From Clostridia bacterium (GTDB taxonomy: Bacteria > Bacillota > Clostridia > DUPQ01): a stretch of 64,000 bases of DNA. Below, piece after piece: positions 6,261 through 62,666 of this stretch (positions are counted from its first letter, which is position 1; every line of letters begins with the position of its first letter). Where the stretch lies: positions 807 to 64,806 of the forward strand of contig JAUUZV010000001.1 of the NCBI GenBank assembly GCA_030592085.1, in the 5' to 3' direction. A program made the position numbers and the translations under genes. Below the pieces are notes generated by a model. It did no database searches. It was not told where the DNA came from and saw only the letters and a list, made by a program, of their open reading frames with translations.

Positions 6261-7694
6261 TCAGAACCCCTGTGATTTTGGTTTCAATGTATATATTAAT
6301 AATAAAACTAACAAAGCAACAACAAATACAATTGCTATAATTGATTGTGTTTTATAATCATCCCAAAAATCTTTTATTCCTGATGTTGTAAAAACTTTAT
6401 TTATGCTAAACGCACAATTATTTTCATCATTTAATATTTGATATGTTTTACAGCCATTTATAATACCACCTATAGCATTACTATCATCAGTACAAATCCC
6501 ACCAATACAATACTCACCATCTATTTTACAATCTGTACTTAACGTACAAATATCAACAACACTACTACCACACTCACCGGTTATAAGATTACATTCGCCA
6601 GAACATTTATTGGTAACAGTACATTTAGTTTCGGCACATTCATTAAGTGTACATTTATTTCCATCATCACACTCATCATTATTAGAACATACTATATCAG
6701 TTGCACACTCTAAAGTTGAATCTATTGTAAGACCTTGAGGACATTCATTATCCCAAGGTACACTTTCTACAGAAGTTCCTTCACAATAATAACAAGTAAC
6801 TTTTGTTAATTCAATATCATTATTTATATCACCTTTACAAACACCATCAAAACATATATAGCCAGAACCACAACCTACCTTAGTTGAACTTGGTGTATTA
6901 TCACTACAAATAAATTCTATTATATCTTGACTACCATCACACAAATCAGTTTGTTTTCCATTAGCAATAACATTAGAACCTTCTAAAATTTTCCAAGTAA
7001 CAGTGCCCTTTGTCGTTATAGCATGCCCACCATCAGAATCAGAACATTCATATGTTTTATCAATTGACTCTGGATCTACACAAGCACCATCTTTACAAAT
7101 ACCATCATTAGAACATACTGTAGTAGTTGTTCTTGGAGCATTGTCAGAATCACATGATTGTTCTCTTAAATCTTGATAACCATAACACTCATCTTCATCA
7201 GTTCCTTCACCTAAAATTCCTTGTTTATAAGCTACTACTGACCATTTTACACTTCCTTTTTTATCATACACTATACCACCATCAGAATCAAAACATGAAA
7301 ACTTATGAAGTTTACCATCAACACAATTATAACCAGATAATGATGCTAAAACTGCTTTTACTTCAGTACCATCACAATAATATTCTTTCACTTTAAGATA
7401 ATTATCACACTTGTCTATAAATGTTCCTGTATTAGAAATTACAGTACCTTTTATACCATATGTTTTTCCTTCGTCTGTATCTACACAAGTAGGAGCTGCT
7501 GGTGCTATAGCAAATGATAATCTTGATTCGACTTCAACATCTTCTTCAATAAGTTGTGCTTCAAAAATAGAAGCACTCGTACCATATTTATTATATAGGA
7601 AAATTCCTCCTATAGCAATAAATACTATAATGATAACAATTGGTATTATTTTTTTATTTTTTGACATTTTTAATTCATCCTCCAGTTGGTACAA
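6261..7694 (-). CDS. secreted Cys-rich type-I membrane protein with internal repeats (C.DSDGG...KG.V.W, three copies)
   Basis: Signal-anchor N-terminus. Repeats are CVDTDEGKTYGIKGTV, CFDSDGGIVYDKKGSVKW and CSDSDGGHAITTKGTVTW. C-terminal TM and tail KPKSQGF. Confidence 0.5.
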   Translation of the reverse strand: MYQLEDELKMSKNKKIIPIVIIIVFIAIGGIFLYNKYGTSASIFEAQLIEEDVEVESRLSFAIAPAAPTCVDTDEGKTYGIKGTVISNTGTFIDKCDNYLKVKEYYCDGTEVKAVLASLSGYNCVDGKLHKFSCFDSDGGIVYDKKGSVKWSVVAYKQGILGEGTDEDECYGYQDLREQSCDSDNAPRTTTTVCSNDGICKDGACVDPESIDKTYECSDSDGGHAITTKGTVTWKILEGSNVIANGKQTDLCDGSQDIIEFICSDNTPSSTKVGCGSGYICFDGVCKGDINNDIELTKVTCYYCEGTSVESVPWDNECPQGLTIDSTLECATDIVCSNNDECDDGNKCTLNECAETKCTVTNKCSGECNLITGECGSSVVDICTLSTDCKIDGEYCIGGICTDDSNAIGGIINGCKTYQILNDENNCAFSINKVFTTSGIKDFWDDYKTQSIIAIVFVVALLVLLLIYTLKPKSQGF

Positions 7695-8289
7695 TTATTA
7701 TTTTACTTACATTATCGGTTACAATAGGTACAATATCAGCAGTTGTTTGAATTGCCACAGGTGTTAATACTCCAGCCAAAGCATCCCACCATACACCAAA
7801 ATTCCAAAGCCAATTAACAATTCCCTTAAAAGGAATAATATTTGGCTTATTCATCAATAATCCATAAGAAAATTCAGCAAATGCAAAAATTAATAATATA
7901 ATTCCTATTATCATAAGGTCAGTCGTTGGATCAAGTTGACTTCTACCAGCAAACCAGTTTCCTACTTTATACATTAAAAAACCTACAATTATAAATAATG
8001 CAACATAAATTAAAACTTGTTTAGCTAATGCTGATTTATAATCTGATCTTAAATTTTCAGGTAAAGTATTAATAACTTCTCCACTTTTTAATTGTTCCAT
8101 AGCACTATCAATTTGGCCATCACTATATACAACTTGACCAATTGTAGCATCAACAACTGGTTTCCAATCACCTGTATCTTTCCATACAACAATACCATTT
8201 ATTATACCAGCTATCATTCCTATAATTAACATACTATAAAATATTATAGACATGAATTTCAACATTGATGGTCCGGCTATTATTCCCAT
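7675..8289 (-). CDS. multi-TM membrane protein, hypothetical
   Basis: 204-aa ORF with TM helices at both ends. Confidence 0.35.
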   Translation of the reverse strand: MGIIAGPSMLKFMSIIFYSMLIIGMIAGIINGIVVWKDTGDWKPVVDATIGQVVYSDGQIDSAMEQLKSGEVINTLPENLRSDYKSALAKQVLIYVALFIIVGFLMYKVGNWFAGRSQLDPTTDLMIIGIILLIFAFAEFSYGLLMNKPNIIPFKGIVNWLWNFGVWWDALAGVLTPVAIQTTADIVPIVTDNVSKIIIVPTGG

Positions 8290-8292
8290 TTT

Positions 8293-8523
8293 TTATTCCC
8301 TTATTTTTATTTTTACAGCAATAATCTCGTTAAATCTTTGAACAGGATATTTTCGAAACTCAATTCCACTATCTCTTAATAGTTGAGTTTCTTTATCTAT
8401 TTTTTTAGTATTAGTAATTGGTATAACTTGATAAGTTCTCCAATTAGGATAATTTCTAATTTTTTTAAATTCAGTTTTCATTAATTCTTTCATATCTATA
8501 TTTGTCATTTTTATCTCACACAT
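8293..8523 (-). CDS. hypothetical small protein
   Basis: 76-aa ORF between membrane-protein genes. Confidence 0.3.
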   Translation of the reverse strand: MCEIKMTNIDMKELMKTEFKKIRNYPNWRTYQVIPITNTKKIDKETQLLRDSGIEFRKYPVQRFNEIIAVKIKIRE

Positions 8524-8828
8524 GTTTCATATTTACCAACACAATCTTCAATTGGCCTTATACTAAGTCCACATGTTCCATTATGTGCTGGATTTGTTCG
8601 TATTAATTTTGTACATAAATAAGTTAAACAATTATCATCTTGTATTTCTTCACACATTCCATAAAAACTATCTTTTGGTGCTTCAACATGTTCTGTAAAA
8701 ATTTTAGCATTATTTTGTGTTGGGGTTTCTACTGGAAAAAATATTGATATACTAATGATAATAATGAACATAACAATAACTATAAGTATTACTTTTGTAA
8801 ATATATTTGGTTTTGTATTTTGTGACAT
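8511..8828 (-). CDS. signal-anchored Cys-containing small protein, hypothetical
   Basis: N-terminal TM followed by a Cys-rich ectodomain. Confidence 0.3.
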   Translation of the reverse strand: MSQNTKPNIFTKVILIVIVMFIIIISISIFFPVETPTQNNAKIFTEHVEAPKDSFYGMCEEIQDDNCLTYLCTKLIRTNPAHNGTCGLSIRPIEDCVGKYETCVR

Positions 8829-8846: not shown

Positions 8847-8868
8847 AATTAAAAAATAAAAAAAATTG
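8847..8868 (-). terminator. oligo-T tract (TTTTTTTATTTTTTAATTT on the transcribed strand) just 3' of gene 8875..9936
   Basis: A-run on the plus strand, so a T-run on the minus strand, directly after the stop codon. The same element recurs after three other minus-strand genes. Confidence 0.4.
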
Positions 8869-8874: not shown

Positions 8875-9936
8875 TTAACTAACGGATAATACGAGCCTAG
8901 GTAGGTTTATAGTAGCTACAGCGACTTGCGTTGCTGCATCTGTCCAACATCCAACGTTTATTGTATCCTGTGCTTTTACAGAATTATATCTACCTTCTGC
9001 ACAAAATTCAATAATAGGGTCATCGCTTGGATTTACTCCAGCAGCCGATTCCATATAAAAGTCGACGTAAGATTCTCTATCCCCAATAGTTCCAATGTCA
9101 TAAGCATATTCATATCCTGAATATTTTCTTAAATCATCTGAAGCCATACTGGTTTTAACATCTACTAATTTTTGTCCACCATCTCTTGATACGATTGGTT
9201 CATCATATTCCGACCCATCAGCATCCACAAGCATAAATACCTTTAGACCATCTTCACCAAATTGTTTCTTGGTTTCGTTTGTTTTCATATAGATTCTTGT
9301 ATCTATATATCCATCAGTAGCTAAAGTTAGTGCTGAATTACCTGAAGCATCTGCAACTGTTAAACTAGATCCATTTGCATCTATGTAAGCAGTACTTCCA
9401 CCAATCTCAAAGAAAGTTGATCCACCGGAATACTTATCTTCTACCTTAAATTTAGGTGAGTCAATAGCTTTTCCCATAACATCTATCTTTGCGGTTGCTC
9501 CTACTGCACTAAACTCTACACTTTCAGCACTTGTATATGCGTCTACACTTGTTACTGTAATAACTTTCCAACCTGTACCACAAGTTACATCTGCATTACT
9601 TGAAAAATTTCCATTAGTATGTAATGTTCCTAATGTAGTTCGTCTTTCATTTGCATTTGTTGGTACTGCATATGCTGTTGGGTTTCCATATGTTATTGTT
9701 GACGCAAGTCCTTCTTGATATCGAACAACAATACCTGTTAATTCGCTATCTGGGCAACTTGCAACAACACCGCCAACTTGCGCACCAGGTGTTCCTGGTT
9801 GTGGGGCAGTACTAGCTGGAGCGCAAGCACCTAATATGACTGATAATGCTAAAAGCATACCAATCAACATGTTTCTTTTCTTCATTTTGGTTTCCACCTC
9901 ATTATATTTATCTATTAAACTACTATATGTAGTCAA
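8875..9936 (-). CDS. secreted paralog A with lipoprotein-like signal; abundant-structural-protein candidate
   Basis: An internal start MKKRNMLIGMLLALSVILGAC looks like a signal peptide with a lipobox-like Cys. It is about 65% identical to ORF 10916..12013 over its whole length (shared LVGKAIDSPKFKVEDKYSGGSTFF, QFGEDGLKV.MLVDADGSE.DEPIV.RDGGQKLVDV and VGCWTDAA). Confidence 0.55.
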   Translation of the reverse strand: MTTYSSLIDKYNEVETKMKKRNMLIGMLLALSVILGACAPASTAPQPGTPGAQVGGVVASCPDSELTGIVVRYQEGLASTITYGNPTAYAVPTNANERRTTLGTLHTNGNFSSNADVTCGTGWKVITVTSVDAYTSAESVEFSAVGATAKIDVMGKAIDSPKFKVEDKYSGGSTFFEIGGSTAYIDANGSSLTVADASGNSALTLATDGYIDTRIYMKTNETKKQFGEDGLKVFMLVDADGSEYDEPIVSRDGGQKLVDVKTSMASDDLRKYSGYEYAYDIGTIGDRESYVDFYMESAAGVNPSDDPIIEFCAEGRYNSVKAQDTINVGCWTDAATQVAVATINLPRLVLSVS

Positions 9937-9941
9937 TATCT

Positions 9942-10856
9942 TTACTCAAATGTAACAAAATCTTTAGCCATTAAACGGCCTTCTTTAATTATATCTTTGA
10001 TACTTAATAATCCAAAGATAACAATCATTAGTCCTATCGCGTCTAGTATTACACCTCCTGGAAATGTTGTTAATGCTGCTAAAACTACAGCTCCTCCTAC
10101 GAAGATTGCATTATTAACAGCATGAACTCCAATACTGAAAAGCAATCCTAAATTTCCAAACTTATATATAAAAATATTTAATATAAGTCTAAAAAGAGCA
10201 GCAAAAGCAAAAAGTCCTACGTTCATACTACCGTTATCGTTTAAATATGTATTATTAAATACGTGAAGAATAGCAAATAATACAACACTAAAAATCATAG
10301 ACATTGTAAAATCCCACACCTCATTACCTTTCTCTCCATAATCTAAATGTAAAAGTTTTCGTGTTCCAAGTCCAAGAACTAAACTACCCATTAAAACAAA
10401 ACCAAAACCAAGAACTATTTCTTCTATTACTGCTGCAGATAATACTGTAATAAAAAATACCCAAAAAGGAGATGTGGCAGCACTTAATGCTGAAAAAGTT
10501 TGACTACCTAATCCTACACCAAACTGAGCTAATGGTGCCATCACAAAAGGAGAATAAAAGTTCATACCCGTAAATGTTGAAAAACTAAAAAATATTAATA
10601 ATGAAATCACACCAAGAAACAACGCAAGAAATCCTCGTTCAGTTGTTCTATTAATAGGAATTTCAAACCAAAAATCAAGTTTTGCTAAATATTTAGCAAC
10701 GACGGCAATTAAAATAAAAACTACACCAATAATAAATAGCCATAAATATGCCACACCAGCTTCTAAGCCAAGTCGACTCAGCCAGTATAAACCAAAGAGT
10801 GCGAAAGTAAGAAATGTTGCAATTATTATATTGAATGGAAATTTTGAGTCTGTCAT
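9942..10856 (-). CDS. CPBP/CAAX-family intramembrane metalloprotease-like protein
   Basis: 304 aa with 7-8 TM helices. Motifs EEIVLG (EExxx), FAILH (FxxxH) and HAVNN (HxxxN) are typical of the Abi/CPBP family. Confidence 0.5.
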   Translation of the reverse strand: MTDSKFPFNIIIATFLTFALFGLYWLSRLGLEAGVAYLWLFIIGVVFILIAVVAKYLAKLDFWFEIPINRTTERGFLALFLGVISLLIFFSFSTFTGMNFYSPFVMAPLAQFGVGLGSQTFSALSAATSPFWVFFITVLSAAVIEEIVLGFGFVLMGSLVLGLGTRKLLHLDYGEKGNEVWDFTMSMIFSVVLFAILHVFNNTYLNDNGSMNVGLFAFAALFRLILNIFIYKFGNLGLLFSIGVHAVNNAIFVGGAVVLAALTTFPGGVILDAIGLMIVIFGLLSIKDIIKEGRLMAKDFVTFE

Positions 10857-10880
10857 ATATGATCACCTAAGTTAAGTTGT

Positions 10881-10903
10881 AAAAAATAAAAAAAATAAAA
10901 AAT
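10881..10903 (-). terminator. oligo-T tract 3' of gene 10916..12013
   Basis: AAAAAATAAAAAAAATAAAAAA on the plus strand, so a T-run on the transcribed minus strand with no hairpin. Confidence 0.4.
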
Positions 10904-10915
10904 TTAACATTTCAA

Positions 10916-12013
10916 TTAAGAAATGTCATATTTAAACTTAGGCAAATTAGCAGTTGCTACAGCAGCCTGATTTGCAGCATCTGTCCAACATCCAACCTTA
11001 ACTGTATCTTTTTCTTTTACAGAATTATATTTACCTTCTGCACAAAATTCTACAATTGGGTCAGTTGAAGGATTAACACCAGCAGCTGATTCCATATACA
11101 AATCTATAAAAGATTCTCTGTCACCAATACTACCGATTTCGTAGGCATACTCAAAACCCGAATATTTACGAAGATCATCTGGCATCATGCTTTGCATAAC
11201 ATCTACTAATTTTTGTCCACCATCTCTAGCTACGATTGGTTCATCCCATTCTGAGCCATCTGCATCAACCAACATCCAAACTTTTAAACCATCTTCACCA
11301 AATTGGTTTTTAGTATTGTTTGTTTTAATGTAGATTCGTGAATCTAGATATCCATCGGTACCAATAGTTAATGCAGTAGCACCAGCTTGATCAGCAATTG
11401 TGTCTTGTGTTCCATCAAAAGCTACATATCCTGTACCTGCTGCGGTAGTTCCAGCATTACCTGAATTGTTAAAGAAAGTTGATCCACCAGAATACTTATC
11501 TTCTACCTTAAATTTAGGTGAGTCGATAGCTTTTCCAACTAAATCACGCTTAACAAAAGCGCCACTTGCAACAAAACCTTCAGCTTCTTCAGCACTTGAA
11601 TAAGCATCTTGACTTGTTATAGCAACAGCACGCCATTTTGTACCTGATGTAAGACAAGGTAAATCAACTGCAGCTGAATATGAGCCATCTGTTGCTAGAG
11701 CACCTGAAGTAACTCTTTCCTGTCCTTCACTTTGAGGTATAAAATATACTGTTGGATCTCCGTATGTTATTACAGAAGCAAGACTTTCTTGGTATCTTAC
11801 TTGTCCACTTGTTGTTGAATCATCTGGGCAACTTACAATAGCCCCCACTGACTGAATACCTGTTTCTGTCAAAGCATCTTGCGGTGCAATTGTAGCAGCT
11901 GCAGGTCCAGTTGTTCTAGCGACAAAAACTATACTAGTAACTAAGATTGCAAGAGCAATTAGAACTAATATTGTCATACCGGTAGAAACTCCACCTTTCT
12001 TATTTCCTAACAT
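10916..12013 (-). CDS. secreted paralog B with class-III (type IV pilin-like) signal peptide
   Basis: N-terminus MLGNKKGG/VSTGMTILVLIALAILV resembles an archaeal prepilin/archaellin signal. The protein is homologous to ORF 8875..9936. Confidence 0.55.
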   Translation of the reverse strand: MLGNKKGGVSTGMTILVLIALAILVTSIVFVARTTGPAAATIAPQDALTETGIQSVGAIVSCPDDSTTSGQVRYQESLASVITYGDPTVYFIPQSEGQERVTSGALATDGSYSAAVDLPCLTSGTKWRAVAITSQDAYSSAEEAEGFVASGAFVKRDLVGKAIDSPKFKVEDKYSGGSTFFNNSGNAGTTAAGTGYVAFDGTQDTIADQAGATALTIGTDGYLDSRIYIKTNNTKNQFGEDGLKVWMLVDADGSEWDEPIVARDGGQKLVDVMQSMMPDDLRKYSGFEYAYEIGSIGDRESFIDLYMESAAGVNPSTDPIVEFCAEGKYNSVKEKDTVKVGCWTDAANQAAVATANLPKFKYDIS

Positions 12014-12413
12014 TTTATTTTTTAAAGCAGATTTTTAAGAGACCTTTTTAATATGCATGTCAAAACATAGACGTTATAAAACACTTGTGTTCAACAAACA
12101 TAATCCCCTGATTTCATCTTTAAAATTTATCACTGCTTAACGATATATTTTGTTGACAAAATCAAATATTTACTATTTTTACGATATATCTATATACATT
12201 AGAAATTATATATAACCTTTGGCTCTCCAGAACCATCAGACTCTTAAAGGTTCGTTCATTCCTGGACAATAAAAAACACAGGGGGCTTTATACGTACTTC
12301 CATACTTATAAAAACATATATTTATATATGATGAAGTATTCAGCAAGGTTTTATAAATGATGAAATCTACAGAATACAAATGTTTAAATACTATAAAATA
12401 GTATTTTTGAACT

Positions 12414-12758
12414 ATGAATTATCAAATTTTTATTATTCTAACCATAATCCATATATTATTTATGTTAATAATTTTCACAATAAATCATTTTTTTGATGAT
12501 AATTTAATAATGAAAATATTTGCATATTTTAGTGCTTTTAGTTTAAACATAATAACCTTCTATATTTTTATTTATATCATAAACATAGCACAATCATTAA
12601 TACTACTTAATTATTTCTTAATTACATCCATAATTTTTATAATATATTTTATACTTAATGAAGACTGGCTATTTAGAATTAATAAAATCTTAAATTTGGT
12701 ACTAATGAGTTTATTAGGAATTACTATTTATTTTACTTTTATAATTTTAACATTCTAG
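12414..12758 (+). CDS. very hydrophobic ORF, possibly a membrane protein or an artefact of low complexity
   Basis: 114-aa ORF rich in Ile/Phe, located in the divergent intergenic region. Confidence 0.2.
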   Translation: MNYQIFIILTIIHILFMLIIFTINHFFDDNLIMKIFAYFSAFSLNIITFYIFIYIINIAQSLILLNYFLITSIIFIIYFILNEDWLFRINKILNLVLMSLLGITIYFTFIILTF

Positions 12759-12786
12759 AAATAAAAAAATAAAAAAATAAAAAAAA
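12759..12786 (-). terminator. oligo-T tract 3' of gene 12787..13191
   Basis: ATAAAAAAATAAAAAAATAAAAAAAA on the plus strand, immediately after the minus-strand stop codon. Confidence 0.4.
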
Positions 12787-17105: not shown

Positions 17106-17125
17106 TTTTTTTTATTTTTTTTAAA

Positions 17126-17519: not shown

Positions 17520-17909
17520 ATGTTTAAATTAAAAAAAGAATTTAATATTAGTTGTAGTCATAGACTTTTTGATATGGATGCGTCAGATGAAACAAATAGT
17601 ATAATTTTTGGTAGATGTTGTAAAAATCATGGGCACAATTATAAAATAATTCTTTATCTTAAATCTGACTCATTAAAGCATGGTATGTTATTAAATTTTA
17701 ATGAAATAAAAGACATTTTCAACTTACATATAGATAATGTATATGATCATAAATTTTTGAATGATTGTCCTGGTTTTGAAAACGTTATACCAACTGCAGA
17801 AAATATGTGTAAAGTGTTTTTTAATAAGCTTAAAGTACATTTATCGACTTTATATGCTGTAGAAATATATGAAACAGAAGGTGCTTCTGCTATTTATGAG
17901 GATGATTAA
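17520..17909 (+). CDS. queD: 6-carboxy-5,6,7,8-tetrahydropterin synthase (QueD/PTPS family)
   Basis: CSHRLFDMD, CCKNHGHNYKI (CxxxHGH) and DHKFLND are QueD/PTPS signature motifs. SD AAGGAG upstream. Confidence 0.7.
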   Translation: MFKLKKEFNISCSHRLFDMDASDETNSIIFGRCCKNHGHNYKIILYLKSDSLKHGMLLNFNEIKDIFNLHIDNVYDHKFLNDCPGFENVIPTAENMCKVFFNKLKVHLSTLYAVEIYETEGASAIYEDD

Positions 17910-17910
17910 A

Positions 17911-18495
17911 ATGAAAGTGAATGAAATGTTTGAATCGTTGCAAGGCGAAGGTCGTTTTGTTGGATATCCTGTTATGTTTATTAGAATGTCAGGGTGTAAT
18001 AGGTCTTGCGTCTTTTGCGACACATCTTATCATAACGAAGGAGAAGAACTGTCAGTAGAACAAATGGTTAAAAAGATAGATAAAAGTAATATGAATATTA
18101 TTATTTTTACTGGAGGAGAACCTATGATGCAGTTCGATGATATTATAAAAGTTATTGAACAAACAAAAGATAAACAATATCATATTGAAACTAATGGTGA
18201 TTTATTAGTTCCTGAAAGTTATTTTGATTATGTATGTTTTTCACCTAAAAGTGAAGAAGGTTTAAATAAAGCATTAGGATATCCTGGTATATGTGATATA
18301 AAAGTAGTTACAGATTTAAATTTAAATAAAAATATGTTAGAGTCAGCGACGATGATAATGCCGTTAACAACTATATCAGATATTAAAAATTTAAAAATTA
18401 AACAACAAGTATGGAAGTATTGTGAGAAACATAACAAGCGATATGCACCTAGACTTCATGTGGATGTTTGGGGAATGTCTAAACGAGGAGTTTAA
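17911..18495 (+). CDS. queE: 7-carboxy-7-deazaguanine synthase (QueE, radical SAM)
   Basis: Start is the ATG after GAGGATGA. MFESLQGEGRFVGYPVMFIRMSGCNRSCVFCDT carries the radical-SAM CxxxCxxC cluster motif and a QueE-like N-terminus. Confidence 0.75.
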   Translation: MKVNEMFESLQGEGRFVGYPVMFIRMSGCNRSCVFCDTSYHNEGEELSVEQMVKKIDKSNMNIIIFTGGEPMMQFDDIIKVIEQTKDKQYHIETNGDLLVPESYFDYVCFSPKSEEGLNKALGYPGICDIKVVTDLNLNKNMLESATMIMPLTTISDIKNLKIKQQVWKYCEKHNKRYAPRLHVDVWGMSKRGV

Positions 18496-19892: not shown

Positions 19893-20123
19893 ATGAAAAA
19901 AATGAATACTTTAAGTAGGGCAACAATTTATGTGCATCGAAATCATGAAATGAGAGAAAAAGGAAGACTCAAATTTTTTAAACATGAAAGAATTAGGATT
20001 GAAATTAAATTAAAAAATAAAGAAAAAGCTGATTTCATTTATGCTGATGAGCTACAGAAATATCTAGCCGAAAATTTTGAATATGGAACAAAGTTAGAAA
20101 AGGAGGAGAAAAAAGATGAATAA
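19893..20123 (+). CDS. hypothetical small basic protein
   Basis: 76-aa ORF with an SD upstream. Confidence 0.3.
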   Translation: MKKMNTLSRATIYVHRNHEMREKGRLKFFKHERIRIEIKLKNKEKADFIYADELQKYLAENFEYGTKLEKEEKKDE

Positions 20124-20946
20124 AGAATTACCAAAATATAGAAATAAAGAAGATACAACAGGTTTAGCAATACAAAAAGTTGGTATACGAGGAGTAAGAG
20201 CACCGTTTACTTTAAAAACAAAAAATGGTGGAGATCAAGAAACTATAGGAACTTGGAGTATATATACAGATTTATCAGCACAATTTAAAGGTGTTAGTAT
20301 GAGTCTTATGGAAAGAATACTACATCAAACTTTACAAAATGAAATAAGTGTTGATATATTAAAAGATATAACAACTCAAATTTATGAAAAGTCTGAACAC
20401 AAATCCAAAGATGTATATGTGAAAGTTAAATTTCCATACTCAATTAAAGTTAAAGCACCAGCATCTGGTTTTGAAGCTGTAAAGGTTTATGATTGTATGT
20501 TGGAAGTTAGAAATATTGATGGAAAGATTAAAAAATATTTAACTGTAAAAGTTCAATATATAGCAACTTGTCCATGTGCGGCTGAATTAGCTGATGAATT
20601 AATGAAGACTGAAAATAAACAAAGTATGGCACATCAACAAAGAGGTTTTGCTGAAATTACTATAGAATTTGGAAATGAAATTGTATGGATAGAAGATGTG
20701 ATTAACATTGCAGAAAATGAATTAAAAGCTACACCATATCCAGTTATTAGAAGGCCAGATGAACAAAATATTTGTTATACAGCACGTCAAAACTGTGCTT
20801 TTGTAGAAGAAGCTGTAAGAAATATTTGTCTTGGTCTTATTAAAGAATCTAGAATTTTAGATTATGTTGTAGTATGTAATCATGAGGAAAGTATTCATTC
20901 TCACTCAGCCGTTGCTGTAATGAATGATGGAAAGGAGTTAAAATGA
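20116..20946 (+). CDS. folE2: GTP cyclohydrolase FolE2/MptA family (GCYH-IB)
   Basis: N-terminal VGIRGVRAPF, GVSMSLMERI (compare GxHMSRF) and the conserved CPC motif (ATCPCAAEL). SD GGAGGAG upstream. Confidence 0.65.
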   Translation: MNKELPKYRNKEDTTGLAIQKVGIRGVRAPFTLKTKNGGDQETIGTWSIYTDLSAQFKGVSMSLMERILHQTLQNEISVDILKDITTQIYEKSEHKSKDVYVKVKFPYSIKVKAPASGFEAVKVYDCMLEVRNIDGKIKKYLTVKVQYIATCPCAAELADELMKTENKQSMAHQQRGFAEITIEFGNEIVWIEDVINIAENELKATPYPVIRRPDEQNICYTARQNCAFVEEAVRNICLGLIKESRILDYVVVCNHEESIHSHSAVAVMNDGKELK

Positions 20947-22787: not shown

Positions 22788-23906
22788 ATGACTATGAAAG
22801 CCGTATTATATATGAGATTGTTTGAAGATTCTGGAATAACTAAATTACAAATATTTAAAAATAAAAAAGAACATCTTGTTGAGTTACCATTTAAACCTTA
22901 TTTTTTTGACTCAGCCAAAATAGATGGGTTAGTTGGAGAAGAAGTTATTTTAAAACCAGTTGATACATTACAACCTACTAAACTTTTTAAATATGAAGTT
23001 GATTCTGTAAAAGATATACCTAAATTAAGAACTAAAACGAGTATAGCTGCAGATGTAAATTATTTATTACGATTATGTATAGATCAACCTAGCTTTTTGA
23101 ACCAGTATTTTCAAACAGATGAATTAACATTTTTATATCTTGATATTGAAACTGATAGTATTGGAATTTTCCCTAAGCCTGAATTGAACCCAATTATTAG
23201 TATAGGATATGCTATTAATGATGGTCCAGTAAAAGTAATTAAAATTGATAAATTAGAAGATGGTGATATAAAACTTTTATTAGAGTTTAATGAAGTTATG
23301 GAAAAGTACAATCCTGATGTCATAGTTGGATATAATATTTTAATGTTCGATTTACCATATATTTTGAAAAGAATGAAAAAGAATGGAATAAGTACAGATT
23401 GTTGGACAAGAGGTAAAACATCTGCATTTTTCACAACTAGTTCTGGTAATGAAGTTTATAATATTCAAGGAAGGTTTGTATTTGATGTGATTAAAGAAGT
23501 GTTTCAAGATCAAACAATTCATGGCATTTCGAAAGGATTAAAACCAGTTTCAAAATATTTTAAAGTTGATGAAAAAATAAGACAAATACCAGGATATGAA
23601 GATTATCAAATTATAACTGAAGATGTTCATATCACGAGGCCATTAATCGGAACAGATAAATTGGCAAAATATAATGAGAGTGATGTTCTTATCACACGTG
23701 AATTATGTAAAATGTACATTGCTAATGTGATAGCGTTTGCAGAAATGTTACATGCTCCATTAAATATGATGGCTAAACGAACTACAAGTATGATAGGTTC
23801 TATTTTTTATGCAACCGAACTTAAAAAGAAAGGTATTATTGAATGTACTATGCCTAATTATAAAAGACACCCAGATGTATTTGGAACTTTAAAGGAGGGT
23901 TATTAA
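22788..23906 (+). CDS. polB: family B DNA polymerase, N-terminal half (3'-5' exonuclease domain)
   Basis: Exo I is YLDIETD, Exo II is YNILMFDLPY, Exo III is YNESD. The gene ends in TAA, which overlaps the ATG of the next gene. Confidence 0.75.
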   Translation: MTMKAVLYMRLFEDSGITKLQIFKNKKEHLVELPFKPYFFDSAKIDGLVGEEVILKPVDTLQPTKLFKYEVDSVKDIPKLRTKTSIAADVNYLLRLCIDQPSFLNQYFQTDELTFLYLDIETDSIGIFPKPELNPIISIGYAINDGPVKVIKIDKLEDGDIKLLLEFNEVMEKYNPDVIVGYNILMFDLPYILKRMKKNGISTDCWTRGKTSAFFTTSSGNEVYNIQGRFVFDVIKEVFQDQTIHGISKGLKPVSKYFKVDEKIRQIPGYEDYQIITEDVHITRPLIGTDKLAKYNESDVLITRELCKMYIANVIAFAEMLHAPLNMMAKRTTSMIGSIFYATELKKKGIIECTMPNYKRHPDVFGTLKEGY

Positions 23907-25105
23907 TGCCTTTTTTTAGAGAGTCTCGATTTAATGATGAGAAAGGAATACAAGGAGCTATTGTAGAGATTTATAAAACTGGTTTAATACGAAAAATAAA
24001 AAAGGTTGATTTTTCTGCTTTTTATCCTAGCATTGTTATGAGTTTTAATTTATCACCAGAAACAACAAAGATAAAGGAATATTTACCTTATACTAATAAA
24101 TATGATTTTGATATACAAAAGGATAGAACATTGTTATATATTCCAGATAATAGAATTAATAAAACAGTTGTCATTGAAATAAATAACACTATTCAAGGAT
24201 TTCTTCCAGCAAAACTTATTGAATTTAAAGAAAAAAGAGATAAGATTAAATTAAGATTAAGAGAAAAAAATTTAACACCAGGTGAACAAGTTTATCTTAA
24301 TAGTTTATCATGGACTTATAAAATTTTATCAAATTCTGTTGGTTATGGAATTAATAAAAATGCATGGTTTAAATATGGAGATTTATCAATATCAATAGCA
24401 ATTACTGGATTGGCTAGATATTTTATTCAGTTTGTAATGGACTTAAATCTTGATAAGAATATTGAAGTAGATACTGATGGTATATATGTAGATGGTGATA
24501 TAAATATTGATGATGTTAATTATAAAATAAAGGAACATACATTAGATAAATTTAATATTCCATTTGTTAAAAATTATTTATTTTTAGAGTTAGATGAATA
24601 CGATGCTGGATTTTTTTATAAAACTAAGAATTATCTTTTATTTAATAATGGTAAAGTTATAAAACATGGTGTTACATTTTTATCAAGTAGTAAAACAATA
24701 CTTTTTAAGAAAGCTTTAGATAAAATAGCTGAATATATATTTAATAATAAGTCAGTTATTGAAGCTGTTAATATACTTATAAATGAAGAAAGTACACTTA
24801 AAGATTTTACTATGAAAACTAATATAAATCAACCTATTTCTGAATATAAAAATGATGGATGTTTGCAAAAACAATTAGCTAAACAAGTTAAAGAACATTT
24901 AAAACAAGATTTACAAGTTTCTGATACAATCGATTATATTAAGACCAAAGATGGCTATAAAATATTAACGATAGCAAAGTTACACGAAGTTGATAAAAGA
25001 TATTATTATGATCAATTACAAACGTTAATTAATATTTTTACTGATGAAAAAATTAGTATTGAGAACGGTGGAGCTGTAATACAAAAAAAACTTGAAGGGT
25101 ATTAG
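23906..25105 (+). CDS. polB: family B DNA polymerase, C-terminal half (polymerase domain)
   Basis: Motif A is DFSAFYPSI, motif B is KILSNSVGYG, motif C is VDTDGIYV. It is in a different frame from the upstream half and overlaps it by 1 nt. Confidence 0.75.
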   Translation: MPFFRESRFNDEKGIQGAIVEIYKTGLIRKIKKVDFSAFYPSIVMSFNLSPETTKIKEYLPYTNKYDFDIQKDRTLLYIPDNRINKTVVIEINNTIQGFLPAKLIEFKEKRDKIKLRLREKNLTPGEQVYLNSLSWTYKILSNSVGYGINKNAWFKYGDLSISIAITGLARYFIQFVMDLNLDKNIEVDTDGIYVDGDINIDDVNYKIKEHTLDKFNIPFVKNYLFLELDEYDAGFFYKTKNYLLFNNGKVIKHGVTFLSSSKTILFKKALDKIAEYIFNNKSVIEAVNILINEESTLKDFTMKTNINQPISEYKNDGCLQKQLAKQVKEHLKQDLQVSDTIDYIKTKDGYKILTIAKLHEVDKRYYYDQLQTLINIFTDEKISIENGGAVIQKKLEGY

Positions 25106-27102: not shown

Positions 27103-27133
27103 TTTTTTTATTTTTTTAAATGGGTGACACAAA

Positions 27134-39122: not shown

Positions 39123-39512
39123 TTGTGCGGTATGCTAAATATGGAAACAGTCAAAATTGAAATAGATATGGTACAGTTTATACGAAAGTTGACACAAAAA
39201 AATTATATATCACTTTATATTAATAAGGGTTGTAATATGATATTAACACCACCAGAACTTAGATCTATGTATAATCTATTAAACTTATTAGAATTTCATG
39301 AAATACATAATGAAATAAAAATTAGTGATTTATTAGCACAATCAGGTTTAGGTAGAGTATCATTTACTAGTAATATTTGGAAATTGATGCCTTATTGTAT
39401 AAATGTGAAAGGTTTAGCCAGTCTCGTTCCTGGCAGAAGTGGAGCTAGATTTATATCAATAAATCAAAATGGGCTAGAAGTTTTAAAAAGATGGAGAGAT
39501 CAAAATGTATGA
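39123..39512 (+). CDS. hypothetical protein
   Basis: 129-aa ORF. Confidence 0.3.
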   Translation: MCGMLNMETVKIEIDMVQFIRKLTQKNYISLYINKGCNMILTPPELRSMYNLLNLLEFHEIHNEIKISDLLAQSGLGRVSFTSNIWKLMPYCINVKGLASLVPGRSGARFISINQNGLEVLKRWRDQNV

Positions 39513-40758
39513 AAATGTAATAAATGACATTCTGCAATTAGAAGCTCAAAAACCAGATGATTATTGGAGAGAGAAAGCCGAAGCCCCCTTATTTACTAAA
39601 AAACCTTTTTATGAATATCAAGGAGAAATACCAGAAGAAGATATAATCACGATGAGTGTAGATACTAGAGATGCACAAAGTAGAACACCTTTAAATGCGT
39701 TAGTATGTGCATCTACGGGAGTGGGTAAAGGACGTCTAATAAAAAATATAGTAAAAGCTTATCATAAACAAGGATATAAAATTTTATATTTTGAACCTAA
39801 AAGCATTGAGATGATGAATGCACGAAAAATGGGTAAAGGTAATAAAGTTCATCCATTAGATAAAAATGAAAAACTGCCAGTCGTAAGTTATGTTCCTAAT
39901 TATATTAAAAGTTATTTAGATCTAAATTATCCTGAGATGAGTAGAAAAGTAACTTTTTATTCTCCAGAACTTAGTAAGTTAAATTATCGAGAAATTTGGC
40001 AAAGTTTTGGAGTTCCTGATAAAGCTGCAGATTTAATTGTTGAAATGGTTCAAAAAGGAACAACTAATATAGACGCTTTTATAGCTAAAATAGCTAGAAC
40101 AAGTTTACATTCAATGACTAAACAAGCAGCTTTAGCATCATTAAATAATTTAAAAGGAACGGGATTATTTTCAGCAAAGAGAAAACTTGATTTAGAAGTT
40201 GAATGGGAAAAAAGTAATATTGTAGTTATTAATTATTTTAGTCGAGATGGAGCTTTTATGAATACAGAAATTGGGCTTGTGTTAGATTTAATCAGAGATA
40301 TTGGTATTATGGAAAGTAAAAAAGGATTAAAAAATATTACAAAAAAATTAATAATTTTTGATGATGCTTTTTATTATGCAGGTTTAAGTGCAACATTAGC
40401 CACTAGATCTTCTGGAGGTATTAATTTAGCAATTCGAAATATTTCAAACTGTCAAAATAATTTTAGAACGTGGGGTATTGATACAATGTTTGTTGTTCAA
40501 TCACCAGATACTAATGCTATTTTTCCTGCATTAATAGATGGATGTACTACAAAATTTATAAGTTATGTAGAAAATCCTAGTTCTTTGCAAGGAAAAGTAC
40601 CTTATGCTGCTTATTCGTTAGTTTCAAATGTTAATCCGGCTAAAGGTCCTGTTTTACATGTGAATGAACAAAATTATTTATTTCAATGGATATATGTTCA
40701 AGGTAAGACAAGATGGAAAACTGGTTTTCCATTTGATTGTACTGTTGGACACTCATAA
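39505..40758 (+). CDS. possible degenerate P-loop NTPase (packaging/translocation ATPase candidate)
   Basis: ASTGVGKGRLI is Walker A-like but GKG is non-canonical. KKLIIFDDAFYYAG is Walker B-like. Confidence 0.35.
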   Translation: MYENVINDILQLEAQKPDDYWREKAEAPLFTKKPFYEYQGEIPEEDIITMSVDTRDAQSRTPLNALVCASTGVGKGRLIKNIVKAYHKQGYKILYFEPKSIEMMNARKMGKGNKVHPLDKNEKLPVVSYVPNYIKSYLDLNYPEMSRKVTFYSPELSKLNYREIWQSFGVPDKAADLIVEMVQKGTTNIDAFIAKIARTSLHSMTKQAALASLNNLKGTGLFSAKRKLDLEVEWEKSNIVVINYFSRDGAFMNTEIGLVLDLIRDIGIMESKKGLKNITKKLIIFDDAFYYAGLSATLATRSSGGINLAIRNISNCQNNFRTWGIDTMFVVQSPDTNAIFPALIDGCTTKFISYVENPSSLQGKVPYAAYSLVSNVNPAKGPVLHVNEQNYLFQWIYVQGKTRWKTGFPFDCTVGHS

Positions 40759-46657: not shown

Positions 46658-47368
46658 TTACCTCAGTTTTCTAAATTTGTTTTTAATAATAAACCCAATC
46701 ATTACAAGGCCTAATAAAAACGCCTTTATTTTGCTACCTGTTACAGAAGATTTACCAACTCTTTTCTTATAATTTAATGGGATCTCCATAAAATTAATAT
46801 TTTTTTTAATAATTAATAACATCATTTCCACTCCAAAATGAGAACCTCCTATTGTGAAATAAGGTTCAATTTTTTGTAATACTGATCTTTTTATTAAACG
46901 CATAGTACATCCAACGTCTGTTAAAATTGAAGTATTGTAAAGCAATTCCATTAGTTTTGCAATAAATACATTTCCCCATTTGATAAAGAAGCCTATATTT
47001 GCTCCTTCCCAAATAAGATTTCTGCTAGTCCTAGAACCGAAAACCACATCAAAGTCATCCGAATAGGCTAATAATTTAATTATATCTCTGCCTAAAAAAG
47101 TTCCATCTGGTTCTGCTAAGATTATATAATCACCACTTGCAAATTTTAATCCTTTTCTAATTGCATGACCATAACCTTGTTTATGTTCATATACTTCTTT
47201 TGCTTTAGTTTTTGATACTTCTTTAGATGTACCATAAGCAGCATTATTATTTACAACAATTATTTCATCAATATATCCAGAACTAAAGAAATCATTAATT
47301 GAAGTCTTTATAGATTTCTTCTCATTGTAAGTTGGAAAAATTACAGATATTTTTTTATTTTTCCACAT
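46658..47368 (-). CDS. family-2 glycosyltransferase (dolichyl-phosphate sugar synthase-like)
   Basis: N-terminal ISVIFPTYNEKKSI, DGTF and YIILAEPDG are GT2/DPM1-like motifs. Amphipathic C-terminus. Confidence 0.6.
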   Translation of the reverse strand: MWKNKKISVIFPTYNEKKSIKTSINDFFSSGYIDEIIVVNNNAAYGTSKEVSKTKAKEVYEHKQGYGHAIRKGLKFASGDYIILAEPDGTFLGRDIIKLLAYSDDFDVVFGSRTSRNLIWEGANIGFFIKWGNVFIAKLMELLYNTSILTDVGCTMRLIKRSVLQKIEPYFTIGGSHFGVEMMLLIIKKNINFMEIPLNYKKRVGKSSVTGSKIKAFLLGLVMIGFIIKNKFRKLR

Positions 47369-49483: not shown

Positions 49484-50137
49484 TCATATTCTTCTTGCTG
49501 CTATTTTTCCTTTTTCTTTTCTATATCTTCTTAATAAAGTTGAGGTAGTAACACCAATTGTTTTAGCTATTTCAGACCACGAATATACAAATTTACCTGT
49601 GTCTTTATCTGTTACAGCTAAAAAATTTTCGACTTGTTTCCAATTAATTTTTGCTTTTGGTCTTCCAAACTTTTCAGGATTGTTCTTATATGCGATATCT
49701 CTACCAATTCTAGTATTATCTATTATAGTTTCTCTTTGCCATTCAGCAACACTAGCCATAATACCCATAACCATTCTTCCAAATGTGTTTGCAGTATCTA
49801 AACTTTGTTCTACAAATTTAAGATGTATATTTATTTTTTGTAATTCTTTTTGAGTATTAATCATTTGTTGTAAATTTCTACCGAATCTATCAACTCTTAG
49901 ACAATATATTTTATCAAATTTTTTTTCTTTAGCATCTATAATCATTTTTAAAAAATCTTTCATATATTCTTGTGACTTACCACTAATATATTGATCTACA
50001 TAACTTTTATAGAATTCATTATCATCAACACTAATCTGCTTATTACATTTATCTAATTGGTTTTGAATACTTTTTGCGATGTATTCACCTTGTTCCTTTC
50101 TAGTTGGACTAACTCGTGCGTATATTGCCGCTTTCAT
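49484..50137 (-). CDS. small serine recombinase (resolvase/invertase family)
   Basis: N-terminal AAIYARVSPTRKEQ contains the catalytic Ser context, plus SIQNQ. C-terminal HTH is IAKTIGVTTSTLLRRYR. Confidence 0.7.
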   Translation of the reverse strand: MKAAIYARVSPTRKEQGEYIAKSIQNQLDKCNKQISVDDNEFYKSYVDQYISGKSQEYMKDFLKMIIDAKEKKFDKIYCLRVDRFGRNLQQMINTQKELQKINIHLKFVEQSLDTANTFGRMVMGIMASVAEWQRETIIDNTRIGRDIAYKNNPEKFGRPKAKINWKQVENFLAVTDKDTGKFVYSWSEIAKTIGVTTSTLLRRYRKEKGKIAARRI

Positions 50138-62637: not shown

Positions 62638-62666
62638 TTAAAAAATAAAAAAAATAATTAAAATAA
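62638..62666 (-). terminator. oligo-T tract 3' of gene 62669..63007
   Basis: ttaaaaaataaaaaaaataattaaaataaa on the plus strand. Same element type as at 8847, 10881 and 12759. Confidence 0.4.

What the first reader, a model, noticed from the sequence alone, without database searches (positions are those of the whole stretch)
8875..12013. Two about 65%-identical secreted paralogs with different N-terminal targeting signals flanking a CPBP/CAAX intramembrane protease
ORF A (lipoprotein-like signal, ILGAC) and ORF B (class-III prepilin-like signal, KKGG|VSTGMTILVLIALAILV) share long identical blocks. Each has its own oligo-T terminator, which suggests high independent expression. Between them lies a polytopic protein with the EExxx, FxxxH and HxxxN motifs of CPBP proteases. 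That family is known for maturation of membrane-anchored proteins and for bacteriocin immunity. The trio looks like a dedicated surface or virion-protein maturation cassette. The paralogs could be the major structural (capsid or envelope) proteins of the element.
Basis: partly seen in the sequence, partly recalled or inferred. Interest (0 to 1): 0.65.

Follow-up and report, generated by a model that had tools for sequence, protein, structure and literature searches.

The report
Membrane-anchored viral coat paralogs plus protease
Two copies of an uncharacterised membrane-anchored surface protein and a neighbouring membrane protease form a conserved gene module in an unrecognised group of probably archaeal viruses; they are most likely the virus's outer-coat protein and its processing enzyme, but this is untested.

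Summary
ORF B (10916-12013, minus strand) and ORF A (true start 9885) are paralogs: BLASTP E 2e-141, 59% identity overall, 66% in the mature part. They flank a polytopic protein with invariant EE, FxxxH and HxxxN motifs. That protein has no Pfam hit itself, but a 42%-identical homolog passes Pfam's Rce1-like/CPBP threshold. ORF A has a lipobox (LGAC). ORF B has an archaellin-like 'KKG + hydrophobic helix' N-terminus.

New findings:
- The paralog-then-CPBP gene order is kept in all 9 related metagenomic loci long enough to show it, down to 30% identity.
- The second copy is optional. In all 4 two-copy loci it is the lipobox form.
- The paralog family has at least 245 clusters, with no Pfam, PHROG, phage-collection, IMG/VR or GTDB match.
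- Its only PDB sequence matches are weak ones to archaeal type IV pilins.
- The AlphaFold model is an N-terminal helix plus beta-sandwich domains, not a known capsid fold.
- A hairpin-less compound oligo-T tract follows the first copy in 14 of 16 loci.

Best reading: the major envelope-anchored glycoprotein of a new, probably archaeal, virus lineage, with a dedicated CPBP processing protease. Virion location and processing are inferred, not shown.

The parts
12014..12413 (-). 400-bp AT-rich intergenic region upstream of ORF B, shared with the divergent + strand gene at 12414. Presumed promoter region of the module.
   Evidence: Gene map and sequence. No promoter was demonstrated. Sigma-70-like matches are at chance level.
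10916..12013 (-). ORF B, 365 aa. The primary copy of the family. It has a short basic leader (MLGNKKG), a hydrophobic helix (residues ~11-34), a Thr/Ala/Pro linker, and then ~300 aa of beta-sandwich ectodomain with 4 conserved Cys and conserved N-x-S/T sequons.
10881..10902 (-). Compound oligo-T tract (T6-A-T8-A-T6) 13 nt after the ORF B stop codon, with no hairpin. Terminator or attenuator candidate.
   Evidence: An equivalent tract follows the first paralog in 13 of 15 related loci.
9942..10856 (-). 304-aa polytopic membrane protein, a divergent CPBP/Rce1-like glutamic intramembrane protease. E145-E146, F194xxxH198, H245xxxN249 and R166 are invariant. An AGGTGA Shine-Dalgarno sequence lies at 10868-10863.
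   Evidence: JGI names six homologs 'membrane protease YdiL (CAAX protease family)'.
8875..9885 (-). ORF A, 336 aa from the ATG at 9885 (the mechanical ORF runs to 9936). The secondary copy, with a lipoprotein signal MKKRNMLIGMLLALSVILGA|C. It is 66% identical to ORF B in the mature region. A GAGGTGG Shine-Dalgarno sequence lies at 9900-9894.
   Evidence: (P0006).
8851..8865 (-). Oligo-T tract (T8-A-T6) 9 nt after the ORF A stop codon.
6261..8828 (-). Downstream co-oriented membrane-protein genes that travel with the module in related loci. They are a 105-aa N-terminal-TM protein (8511-8828), a 76-aa protein (8293-8523), a 204-aa multi-TM protein (7675-8289), and a 477-aa Cys-rich repeat protein with TM segments at both ends (6261-7694).
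   Evidence: tblastn synteny in L001, L002, L003, L005, L007, L008 and L013. No Pfam or PHROG assignment.

Best explanation
The region is the head of the virion or surface module of an uncultivated, low-GC, most likely archaeal virus.

ORF B is the hallmark protein of a large unannotated family. It is made as a membrane protein with an archaeal type IV pilin/archaellin-like N-terminus: a short basic leader ending in Gly, then a ~24-residue hydrophobic helix. This anchors a disulfide-bonded, probably N-glycosylated beta-sandwich ectodomain on the outer face of a membrane. I read it as the major envelope-anchored coat glycoprotein. It appears to be expressed at high level from its own unit, which ends at a leaky oligo-T terminator.

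Read-through would give lower amounts of the next two products. The first is a divergent but catalytically intact CPBP (Rce1-like) glutamic intramembrane protease. I infer that it processes the membrane-proximal anchor or linker of the coat protein. The second, in this lineage, is a second copy (ORF A) whose anchor has been changed to a lipoprotein signal, giving a lipid-anchored isoform.

What is shown:
- The paralogy.
- The signal types.
- CPBP superfamily homology with intact catalytic residues.
- Conserved gene order.
- The conserved T-tract.

What is inferred:
- Virion location.
- Cleavage by the CPBP protein.
- Cleavage of the leader by a host prepilin peptidase.
- Glycosylation and lipidation.
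- An archaeal host.
For: - Paralogy: E 2e-141.
- Family size and novelty: 245 clusters at E <= 1e-3, all ~350-400 aa with full-length matches. None of 129 members hits Pfam or PHROGs.
- Synteny: paralog followed by CPBP in L001, L002, L003, L005, L007, L008, L010, L013 and L015, down to 30% identity.
- Two-copy loci: always one [KR]G-TM copy plus one lipobox copy, namely LGAC, LTGC, LCGC and LVSC.
- CPBP: invariant EE, FxxxH and HxxxN. P0049 is 42% identical to the window protein (E 1e-19; found at E 7e-20) and hits PF02517 at 29.3 bits, above the 22.4 cutoff, over profile positions 3-92 of 93.
- CPBP model: a confident polytopic AlphaFold model (pLDDT 88.6).
- Ectodomain: helix 11-34 followed by an all-beta structure. 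Foldseek finds tandem beta-sandwich surface proteins (BcpA, SpaD, RrgB, SlaB).
- Pilin-like N-terminus: 60 of 148 family members have [KR]G directly before the helix, many starting 'MNKKG'. The best PDB sequence matches of the family profile are archaeal type IV pilins 8FK7, 8TIB and 8Q30 (E 0.0018-0.049).
- Expression architecture: an oligo-T tract follows the first copy in 14 of 16 loci, including loci of 41-51% GC. It follows none of the 10 CPBP genes.
- Archaeal hints:
  - Hairpin-less T-tract terminators.
  - An AglJ-like dolichyl-phosphate glycosyltransferase in the window (E 3e-22).
  - Three conserved N-x-S/T sequons.
  - The primase-like ORF's only matches in the phage collection are Methanobacteriales viruses.
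  - A Pfam AF_0843 family gene in the distant locus L019.
- No known capsid, portal, terminase or packaging ATPase gene was found in the window by Pfam or PHROGs, so no other capsid-protein candidate was identified.
Against: - There is no proteomic or expression data.
- The ORF B model is only moderate (pLDDT 71.6), and its global TM-scores to PDB hits are low (0.2-0.3).
- The window CPBP protein itself gets no Pfam hit even at E <= 10, no NCBIfam hit at E <= 1, and no PDB sequence hit to Rce1.
- Foldseek of its good model against the PDB finds nothing significant, not even MmRce1.
- Motif 1 lacks the canonical Arg.
- N-terminal anchors in the wider family are interchangeable (plain TM, two-TM), so class III processing cannot be obligatory.
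- The distant loci L018 and L019 show no recognisable CPBP neighbour. The L016 neighbour is CPBP-like by motifs only (hhalign probability 0.5%).
- The pilin matches are weak and partly driven by the hydrophobic helix.
- The host domain is not established. Shine-Dalgarno sequences and lipoboxes are also compatible with bacteria.
Confidence: 0.4

Rival explanations
1. The paralogs are not virion components. They are virus- or plasmid-encoded pilin-like or adhesin-like proteins displayed on the infected cell. They could be assembled or processed by the host type IV pilus machinery. Possible roles are superinfection exclusion, receptor masking or cell-cell attachment. In this reading the CPBP protein acts as an accessory or immunity-type membrane protein.
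For: - Class III-like N-termini and weak profile matches to archaeal type IV pilins.
- Foldseek hits are cellular pilins and S-layer proteins.
- CPBP (Abi) proteins are classically immunity proteins (established knowledge of PF02517).
- Nothing in the window proves that the element makes particles.
Against: - The family is the most conserved large gene at the head of a co-oriented membrane-protein module in every related contig, including loci from contigs of 13-17 kb (L016, L019).
- No PilB/PilC-type assembly genes or prepilin peptidase were found in the window.
- No relatives were found in 185,579 representative genomes, which is unusual for a host-surface accessory gene.
- The proteins are two to three times longer than the solved archaeal pilins they weakly match (141-144 aa).
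Confidence: 0.2
2. The paralogs are structural, but the CPBP neighbour does not process them. It could be a structural virion or assembly-site membrane protein. It could be a superinfection-immunity or abortive-infection-type protein. It could also act on host substrates. The conserved adjacency would then reflect only co-expression of membrane proteins.
For: - No cleavage motif shared by the TM-type and lipobox-type copies could be identified.
- The family has no C-terminal Cys-containing sorting signal of the kind cut by known prokaryotic CPBP sorting proteases.
- Some CPBP proteins work without proteolysis or in other roles. An example is LnsB in lipoprotein N-acylation (PMC7387801, listed).
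- The distant family members in L018 and L019 lack a recognisable CPBP neighbour.
Against: - The catalytic Glu, His, His and Asn are invariant in all 33 homologs, which argues for enzymatic activity.
- Adjacency is kept across different arrangements: B-CPBP-A in the window and L008, and B-A-(other genes)-CPBP in L003 and L013. It persists down to 30% identity.
Confidence: 0.25
3. The element is a phage of ultra-small bacteria (CPR/Patescibacteria or similar). ORF A would be an ordinary bacterial lipoprotein. ORF B would be an ordinary signal-anchored protein. The 'class III' resemblance would be incidental.
For: - A canonical lipobox and Shine-Dalgarno sequences are present.
- The primase homolog in L001 has a DnaG-type zinc ribbon.
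- The DNA polymerase resembles T4-like phage polymerases at 25-29% identity.
- The samples are 0.1-micron groundwater and marine fractions, where CPR bacteria abound.
Against: - There is no Glu at +5 or G|F(T/S)L motif as in bacterial pilins. The matching solved pilins are archaeal.
- The terminators are hairpin-less oligo-T tracts, conserved even in loci of 41-51% GC.
- The window encodes an AglJ-like glycosyltransferase and a DCD/DUT-family dUTPase (NCBIfam PRK02253), which from my own knowledge is typical of archaea.
- The primase-like ORF matches only Methanobacteriales viruses in the phage collection.
Confidence: 0.15

Closest known systems
CPBP / Rce1-like glutamic intramembrane proteases (Pfam PF02517). 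This includes the prokaryotic sorting proteases of the myxosortase group (MrtX, MrtJ, MrtS and the archaeal MrtA).
   Same: It is a polytopic membrane protein with invariant Glu-Glu, FxxxH and HxxxN motifs. It is encoded next to a surface protein that is its presumed substrate, as in the JDVT-CTERM/MrtJ pairs.
   Different: - The window protein does not reach the Pfam profile itself.
- Motif 1 lacks the Arg.
- The neighbouring proteins have no C-terminal Cys-TM-Arg sorting signal.
- Their only membrane anchor is N-terminal, so any cleavage would be of an N-terminal anchor, which is not a described CPBP sorting role.
- The gene is carried by a virus-like element.
Archaeal type IV pilins and archaellins (class III signal peptide proteins cut by PibD, FlaK or EppA).
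   Same: The leader is short and basic and ends in [KR]-G. It is followed directly by a ~20-25-residue hydrophobic helix and then a beta-sandwich domain. The family profile's best PDB sequence hits are the P. calidifontis and S. islandicus type IV pilins.
   Different: - The proteins are two to three times longer than the matched pilins.
- The strict FlaFind-type pattern is met by only 13 of 148 family members and not by ORF B.
- The anchor is replaceable by a lipobox, a plain TM or two TMs.
- No peptidase, ATPase or platform genes are present in the element.
Prokaryotic lipoproteins (lipobox [LVI][ASTVI][GAS]C).
   Same: ORF A and the second copies in L003, L008 and L013 have a basic n-region, a 12-20-residue h-region, a lipobox Cys and a Pro/Ala/Thr-rich linker.
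   Different: Position -2 in ORF A is Gly, which fits only the relaxed pattern. The host's lipoprotein machinery is unknown. The lipoprotein here is an isoform of a TM-anchored viral protein.
Tandem beta-sandwich surface-filament and S-layer proteins: Gram-positive major pilins BcpA, SpaD and RrgB, and Sulfolobus SlaB.
   Same: These are the best Foldseek matches of the ORF B model (E 8e-6 to 4e-4). The general architecture of stacked beta-sandwich domains on a membrane anchor is shared.
   Different: TM-scores are only 0.2-0.3 and sequence identity 7-12%. There is no sortase motif and no isopeptide signature was tested. This is a fold-class resemblance only.
Unnamed viral protein A0A5Q2WAX2 in BFVD (309 aa).
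   Same: It is the only convincing structural match: Foldseek E 6.6e-9, probability 1.00, TM 0.50/0.58.
   Different: Identity is 12%. Its name, virus and function were not available to me, so it gives no functional information.

Membership tests
CPBP / Rce1-like (PF02517) | Motif 1 Glu-Glu (catalytic Glu) | tested here: met
   E145-E146 are invariant in 33 homologs.
CPBP / Rce1-like (PF02517) | Motif 1 Arg (EExxxR) | tested here: not met
   The motif is EEIVLG in the window and EE[IL][IV]LG throughout A2. An invariant Arg lies 20 residues downstream (R166).
CPBP / Rce1-like (PF02517) | Motif 2 FxxxH and motif 3 HxxxN | tested here: met
   F194, H198, H245 and N249 are invariant.
CPBP / Rce1-like (PF02517) | Significant match to the family profile | tested here: inconclusive
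   The window protein has no hit at E <= 10. 4 of 33 homologs hit at E <= 10. P0049 (42% identical, E 1e-19 to the window protein) scores 29.3 bits against a cutoff of 22.4 over the whole profile. Membership is therefore transitive.
CPBP / Rce1-like (PF02517) | Fold like MmRce1 | tested here: inconclusive
CPBP / Rce1-like (PF02517) | Proteolytic activity on a neighbouring substrate | not testable with these tools
   Only conserved adjacency is available.
Archaeal class III signal peptide / type IV pilin-like proteins | Short basic leader with Gly/Ala at -1 and Lys/Arg at -2 | tested here: met
   ORF B fits if cut as MLGNKKG|GVST. 60 of 148 family members have [KR]G directly before the hydrophobic stretch.
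Archaeal class III signal peptide / type IV pilin-like proteins | Hydrophobic alpha-helix of ~20 residues directly after the cut site | tested here: met
   Helix 11-34 in the model, plus sequence.
Archaeal class III signal peptide / type IV pilin-like proteins | FlaFind-type pattern [KRDE][GA][ALIFQMVED][ILMVTAS]x3 | tested here: not met
   ORF B has Gly at +1. Only 13 of 148 members match the pattern (the pattern was recalled from memory).
Archaeal class III signal peptide / type IV pilin-like proteins | Sequence similarity to solved archaeal pilins | tested here: inconclusive
   The family profile hits 8FK7 (E 0.0018), 8TIB (0.03) and 8Q30 (0.049) over profile positions 6-128. The score is partly due to the hydrophobic helix.
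Archaeal class III signal peptide / type IV pilin-like proteins | Cognate prepilin peptidase and assembly ATPase/platform genes | tested here: not met
   None are among the Pfam, PHROG or NCBIfam families found in 89 window ORFs. They could be supplied by the host.
Lipoproteins | Basic n-region, h-region, lipobox with invariant Cys | tested here: met
   ORF A reads MKKRN-MLIGMLLALSVI-LGAC. The second copies in related loci have LTGC, LCGC and LVSC. The pattern is relaxed at position -2 in ORF A.
Lipoproteins | Lipid modification of the Cys | not testable with these tools
   No data are available.
Known viral major capsid protein folds (double or single jelly-roll, HK97) | Structural or profile match to a capsid protein | tested here: not met
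   There are no capsid proteins among the top 50 Foldseek hits in either the PDB or BFVD. There are no Pfam or PHROG hits in 129 family members. The model is only moderate in quality.

The most novel reading that the evidence does not exclude
A globally distributed, so far unrecognised lineage of archaeal viruses has a hallmark virion protein that descends from, or converged on, type IV pilins. The lineage is absent from IMG/VR, the GenBank phage collection and GTDB representative genomes. The protein is matured by a virus-encoded CPBP intramembrane protease acting on an N-terminal membrane anchor, which would be a new substrate class for this protease family. The lineage repeatedly evolves a pair of isoforms, one TM-anchored and one lipid-anchored.
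Probability: 0.2. Interest if true: 0.8.

Novelty: new variant of a known kind. Interest (0 to 1): 0.6.

Why it matters
If the reading is right, this family of at least 245 clusters is the marker gene for a virus group that current virus-detection pipelines miss. No relative was found in IMG/VR or in the GenBank phage collection.

It would also add a new kind of archaeal virion protein: pilin-like, N-terminally anchored and glycosylated.

It would give the CPBP protease family a virus-encoded member with a candidate natural substrate next door. That is rare for this family, whose substrates are mostly unknown.

The recurrent TM/lipobox isoform pair is a neat natural experiment in how membrane anchoring is swapped.

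Tried and rejected
- Known capsid folds. Foldseek of the ORF B model against the PDB and BFVD gave no jelly-roll or HK97 hits. This reading is rejected as unsupported.
- Direct annotation. Pfam and PHROGs found nothing for the three ORFs or for 129 family members. NCBIfam found nothing for the CPBP family.
- PDB sequence searches of single proteins gave nothing useful.
- Canonical CPBP relatives. Querying with P0049 returned only 5 proteins.
- Extending the CPBP adjacency to distant family members. The HMM found none in L016-L019. hhalign of the L016 neighbour was not significant.
- Source and host.
  - No tRNA or Rfam features.
  - No accession for the NCBI contig.
  - No match in the phage collection by DNA or protein.
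  - None in IMG/VR.
  - None in GTDB representative genomes.
- Literature searches did not find this family or the BFVD hit.
- Promoters. No conserved archaeal TATA position could be seen upstream of the first paralog across loci, and sigma-70-like matches are at chance level.
- Terminal repeats were absent in the related contigs.
- CAAX-type C-terminal processing is rejected. The C-terminus is not hydrophobic, and the last conserved Cys lies 24 residues from the end, inside the folded domain.


Full report
**The element**

The window has 27% GC, no tRNA genes and no Rfam matches. Its genes lie in long co-oriented blocks. Recognisable genes are:
- a family B DNA polymerase split into two adjacent ORFs (22788-25105)
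- a 912-aa primase-like protein
- FolE2, QueD and QueE (7-deazaguanine synthesis)
- dCTP deaminase/dUTPase
- a serine recombinase
- HNH nucleases
- a TrmB-type regulator
- an AglJ-like glycosyltransferase
- a 1342-aa protein with a Laminin_G_3 domain

No terminase, portal, HK97 or jelly-roll capsid protein, or packaging ATPase was detected. It looks like a virus of an unknown kind. The proteins are on record from one NCBI contig of 67,018 bp without names.

**The observation**

All three ORFs lie on the minus strand.

ORF B (10916-12013, 365 aa) and ORF A are clear paralogs. BLASTP gives E 2e-141 and 59% identity. From the conserved SCPD motif onward they are 66% identical, with blocks of up to 22 identical residues. 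The first ~60 columns hardly align. That 22-residue block is 97% identical in DNA and contains a 35-nt exact match, against 68% overall. This suggests patches of gene conversion.

ORF A most likely starts at the ATG at 9885, behind a GAGGTGG Shine-Dalgarno sequence, giving MKKRNMLIGMLLALSVILGA|C.

ORF B starts MLGNKKGGVSTGMTILVLIALAILV.

The middle ORF (9942-10856, 304 aa) carries EEIVL, FAILH and HAVNN.

Compound oligo-T tracts follow both paralogs. The T6-A-T6 pattern occurs 9 times in the window against 0.41 expected, and 8 of these sit directly after stop codons. Hairpin terminators are not enriched.

**The middle protein**

It has no Pfam, PHROG, NCBIfam or PDB sequence match of its own. 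It has 33 homologs in metagenomes, six of them named 'membrane protease YdiL (CAAX protease family)' by JGI.

In their alignment E145, E146, R166, F194, H198, N201, H245 and N249 are invariant. Four of the 33 hit Pfam PF02517 at E <= 10. The clearest is P0049, which is 42% identical to the window protein (E 1e-19). It scores 29.3 bits against a gathering threshold of 22.4, over the whole profile.

I therefore accept homology to the CPBP/Rce1-like superfamily with the catalytic residues intact. Three caveats apply:
- The motif 1 Arg is replaced by Gly.
- A confident AlphaFold model (pLDDT 88.6) found no significant Foldseek match in the PDB. I regard that as uninformative for an all-helical membrane protein.

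**The paralog family**

A word-indexed search found only 15 close relatives, all unnamed. A profile search of 1.84 billion representatives found 245 clusters at E <= 1e-3, 171 of them at E <= 1e-10. Nearly all are 350-400 aa and match over the full length.

None of 129 members hits Pfam or PHROGs at a meaningful level. No relative was found in the GenBank phage collection, in IMG/VR or in GTDB representative genomes.

Conserved features are four Cys residues and three N-x-S/T sequon positions.

The AlphaFold model of ORF B (pLDDT 71.6, with the C-terminal domain at 85-93) is an N-terminal helix (residues 11-34), a low-confidence linker, and about 20 beta strands. Foldseek against the PDB finds tandem beta-sandwich surface proteins (BcpA, SpaD, RrgB, mu2-adaptin, SlaB) at TM 0.2-0.3, and no capsid proteins. 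In BFVD one unnamed 309-aa viral protein matches well (E 6.6e-9, TM 0.50/0.58). I could not identify it.

**N-terminal anchors**

Among 148 full-length members:

| N-terminal type | Members |
|---|---|
| [KR]G directly before the hydrophobic helix (many begin MNKKG) | 60 |
| Plain TM helix | 59 |
| Two TM helices | 20 |
| Lipobox | 7 |
| No hydrophobic stretch found | 2 |

Examples such as KKG|AMGIGAVILIV and RG|AGSGMGILVLL closely resemble archaellin and pilin class III signals. That comparison is from my own knowledge of Methanococcus FlaB2.

The family profile's only PDB sequence matches are three proteins. Two were identified as archaeal type IV pilins: 8FK7 from Pyrobaculum calidifontis (E 0.0018) and 8TIB from Saccharolobus islandicus (E 0.03). 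The third, 8Q30 (E 0.049), I take to be an archaeal pilin but did not check. These scores are weak and partly reflect the hydrophobic helix.

ORF B fails a strict FlaFind-type pattern. So the class III reading is plausible but unproven. The variety of anchors says the common requirement is N-terminal membrane anchoring of an extracytoplasmic domain.

**Synteny**

Nineteen related loci were fetched from metagenomes. In all nine loci of the closer subfamily that extend far enough, the paralog is followed by the CPBP gene. These are L001, L002, L003, L005, L007, L008, L010, L013 and L015, the last at only 30% identity. The same downstream membrane-protein genes often follow as well.

Copy number is one or two. 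The arrangement varies: B-CPBP-A in the window and L008, and B-A-...-CPBP in L003 and L013. In every two-copy locus the first copy has the [KR]G-TM type of N-terminus and the second a lipobox: LGAC, LTGC, LCGC or LVSC.

In a simple neighbour-joining tree the window's A and B are sisters, while the other lipobox copies branch deeply. Either the lipid-anchored isoform arose more than once, or A and B were homogenised by gene conversion. The DNA-identical tract favours some conversion.

More distant family members (L016-L019) have no statistically recognisable CPBP neighbour.

**Expression signals**

A compound oligo-T tract lies 10-35 nt after the stop codon of the first paralog in 14 of 16 loci. 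These include loci of 41-51% GC, where such runs are not expected by composition. No such tract follows any of the 10 CPBP genes or the second copies in other loci.

No hairpin precedes the tracts. From established knowledge, hairpin-less oligo-T tracts are the intrinsic termination signal of archaeal RNA polymerase.

The layout suggests a highly expressed first gene, with read-through supplying smaller amounts of the protease and the second copy.

**Host**

The host is not established. Points favouring archaea:
- the terminator type
- the archaeal-type pilin-like leaders, which lack the bacterial G|FTLxE motif
- an AglJ-like dolichyl-phosphate glycosyltransferase at 46658-47368, together with conserved sequons
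- a DCD/DUT-family dUTPase (NCBIfam PRK02253), typical of archaea by my own knowledge
- the primase-like ORF matching only Methanobacteriales viruses in the phage collection
- a Pfam AF_0843 family gene in L019

Points compatible with bacteria:
- Shine-Dalgarno sequences
- lipoboxes
- a DnaG-type zinc ribbon in the L001 primase

Identifiable sample names point to 0.1-micron groundwater and marine mesopelagic fractions. That fits ultra-small hosts such as DPANN archaea, but this is a guess.

**Mechanism**

I propose that ORF B is the major envelope-anchored coat glycoprotein. The CPBP protein would be its dedicated processing enzyme, and ORF A a lipid-anchored isoform.

A rough positive-inside reading of the CPBP helices is my own inference and the sequence. 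It places H198 and N249 near the outer leaflet. That would put any cut on the outer side of the anchor, in the linker that carries a conserved ALTETG motif in close relatives, rather than at the cytoplasmic KKG site. The KKG site would be left to a host prepilin peptidase. This step is speculative.

Known prokaryotic CPBP sorting proteases (myxosortases MrtX, MrtJ, MrtS, MrtA) cut C-terminal Cys-containing signals. These proteins have no such signal, so an N-terminal substrate would be new for the family.

**Verdict**

The virion role and the processing are inferred, and a classical capsid fold is not supported.

The module combines a known protease family with an unannotated hallmark protein family of an unrecognised virus lineage. 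I rate it a new variant of a known kind, of moderate to high interest.

Noticed in passing
window 8851-8863, 10881-10902, 12764-12784, 17108-17120, 27104-27116, 62640-62652: A recurring T6-8-A-T6-8 motif sits directly after the stop codons of a small subset of genes. There are 9 matches against 0.41 expected. It looks like this element's terminator signal and marks the probably highly expressed units.
   Followed up: partly
window 22788-23906 and 23906-25105 (+): The family B DNA polymerase is encoded as two adjacent ORFs, an exonuclease part and a polymerase part, that overlap by one base. The homolog in L001 is a single 596-aa protein. This is either a true split or a frameshift.
   Followed up: no
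window 17869-18495 (QueE-like radical SAM), 20116-20946 (probable FolE2) and neighbours: Genes for 7-deazaguanine synthesis (FolE2, QueD, QueE) are present, which suggests modified DNA bases. Only the QueE coordinates were checked by motif. The others are assigned by length.
   Followed up: partly
window 46658-47368 (-): A GT2 glycosyltransferase (MWKNKKISVIFPTYNE...) is present. Its best NCBIfam matches are the archaeal N-glycosylation enzyme AglJ (E 3e-22) and a dolichyl-phosphate hexose transferase. The coordinates were assigned from the sequence motif. It could glycosylate the paralogs, which carry three conserved N-x-S/T sequons.
   Followed up: partly
window 6261-7694 (-): A 477-aa protein has TM segments at both ends and repeated Cys-rich 'C.DSDGG...' units. 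It is conserved downstream of the module in related loci. It has the look of a type I envelope spike or fusion protein.
   Followed up: no
window 52231-56259 (-); L016 11835-14879: Giant proteins with a Laminin_G_3 (concanavalin-like) domain occur both in the window (1342 aa) and in the distantly related locus L016, from a 16.5-kb contig (1014 aa). They may be the receptor-binding proteins of the lineage.
   Followed up: no
window 9391-9462 (ORF A) and 11463-11525 (ORF B), coordinates approximate: A ~66-nt tract encoding GKAIDSPKFKVEDKYSGGSTFF is 97% identical between the paralogs, against 68% overall. This suggests local gene conversion.
   Followed up: partly
window 49484-50137 (-); L016 4066-4731: A serine recombinase (resolvase/invertase type) is present in the window and in the distant relative L016. 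It could serve for integration or for DNA inversion.
   Followed up: no
window 39505-40758 (+): A 417-aa protein has a Walker A-like motif (STGVGKGRL) but no Pfam, PHROG or PDB sequence match. It is a candidate for an unrecognised packaging or replication ATPase.
   Followed up: partly
family members P0065, P0067, P0075, P0081, P0085, P0090 and others (not in the window): About 14% of the paralog family (20 of 148) carries two N-terminal TM helices in place of the single [KR]G-TM anchor. This is a third anchor type on the same ectodomain.
   Followed up: no
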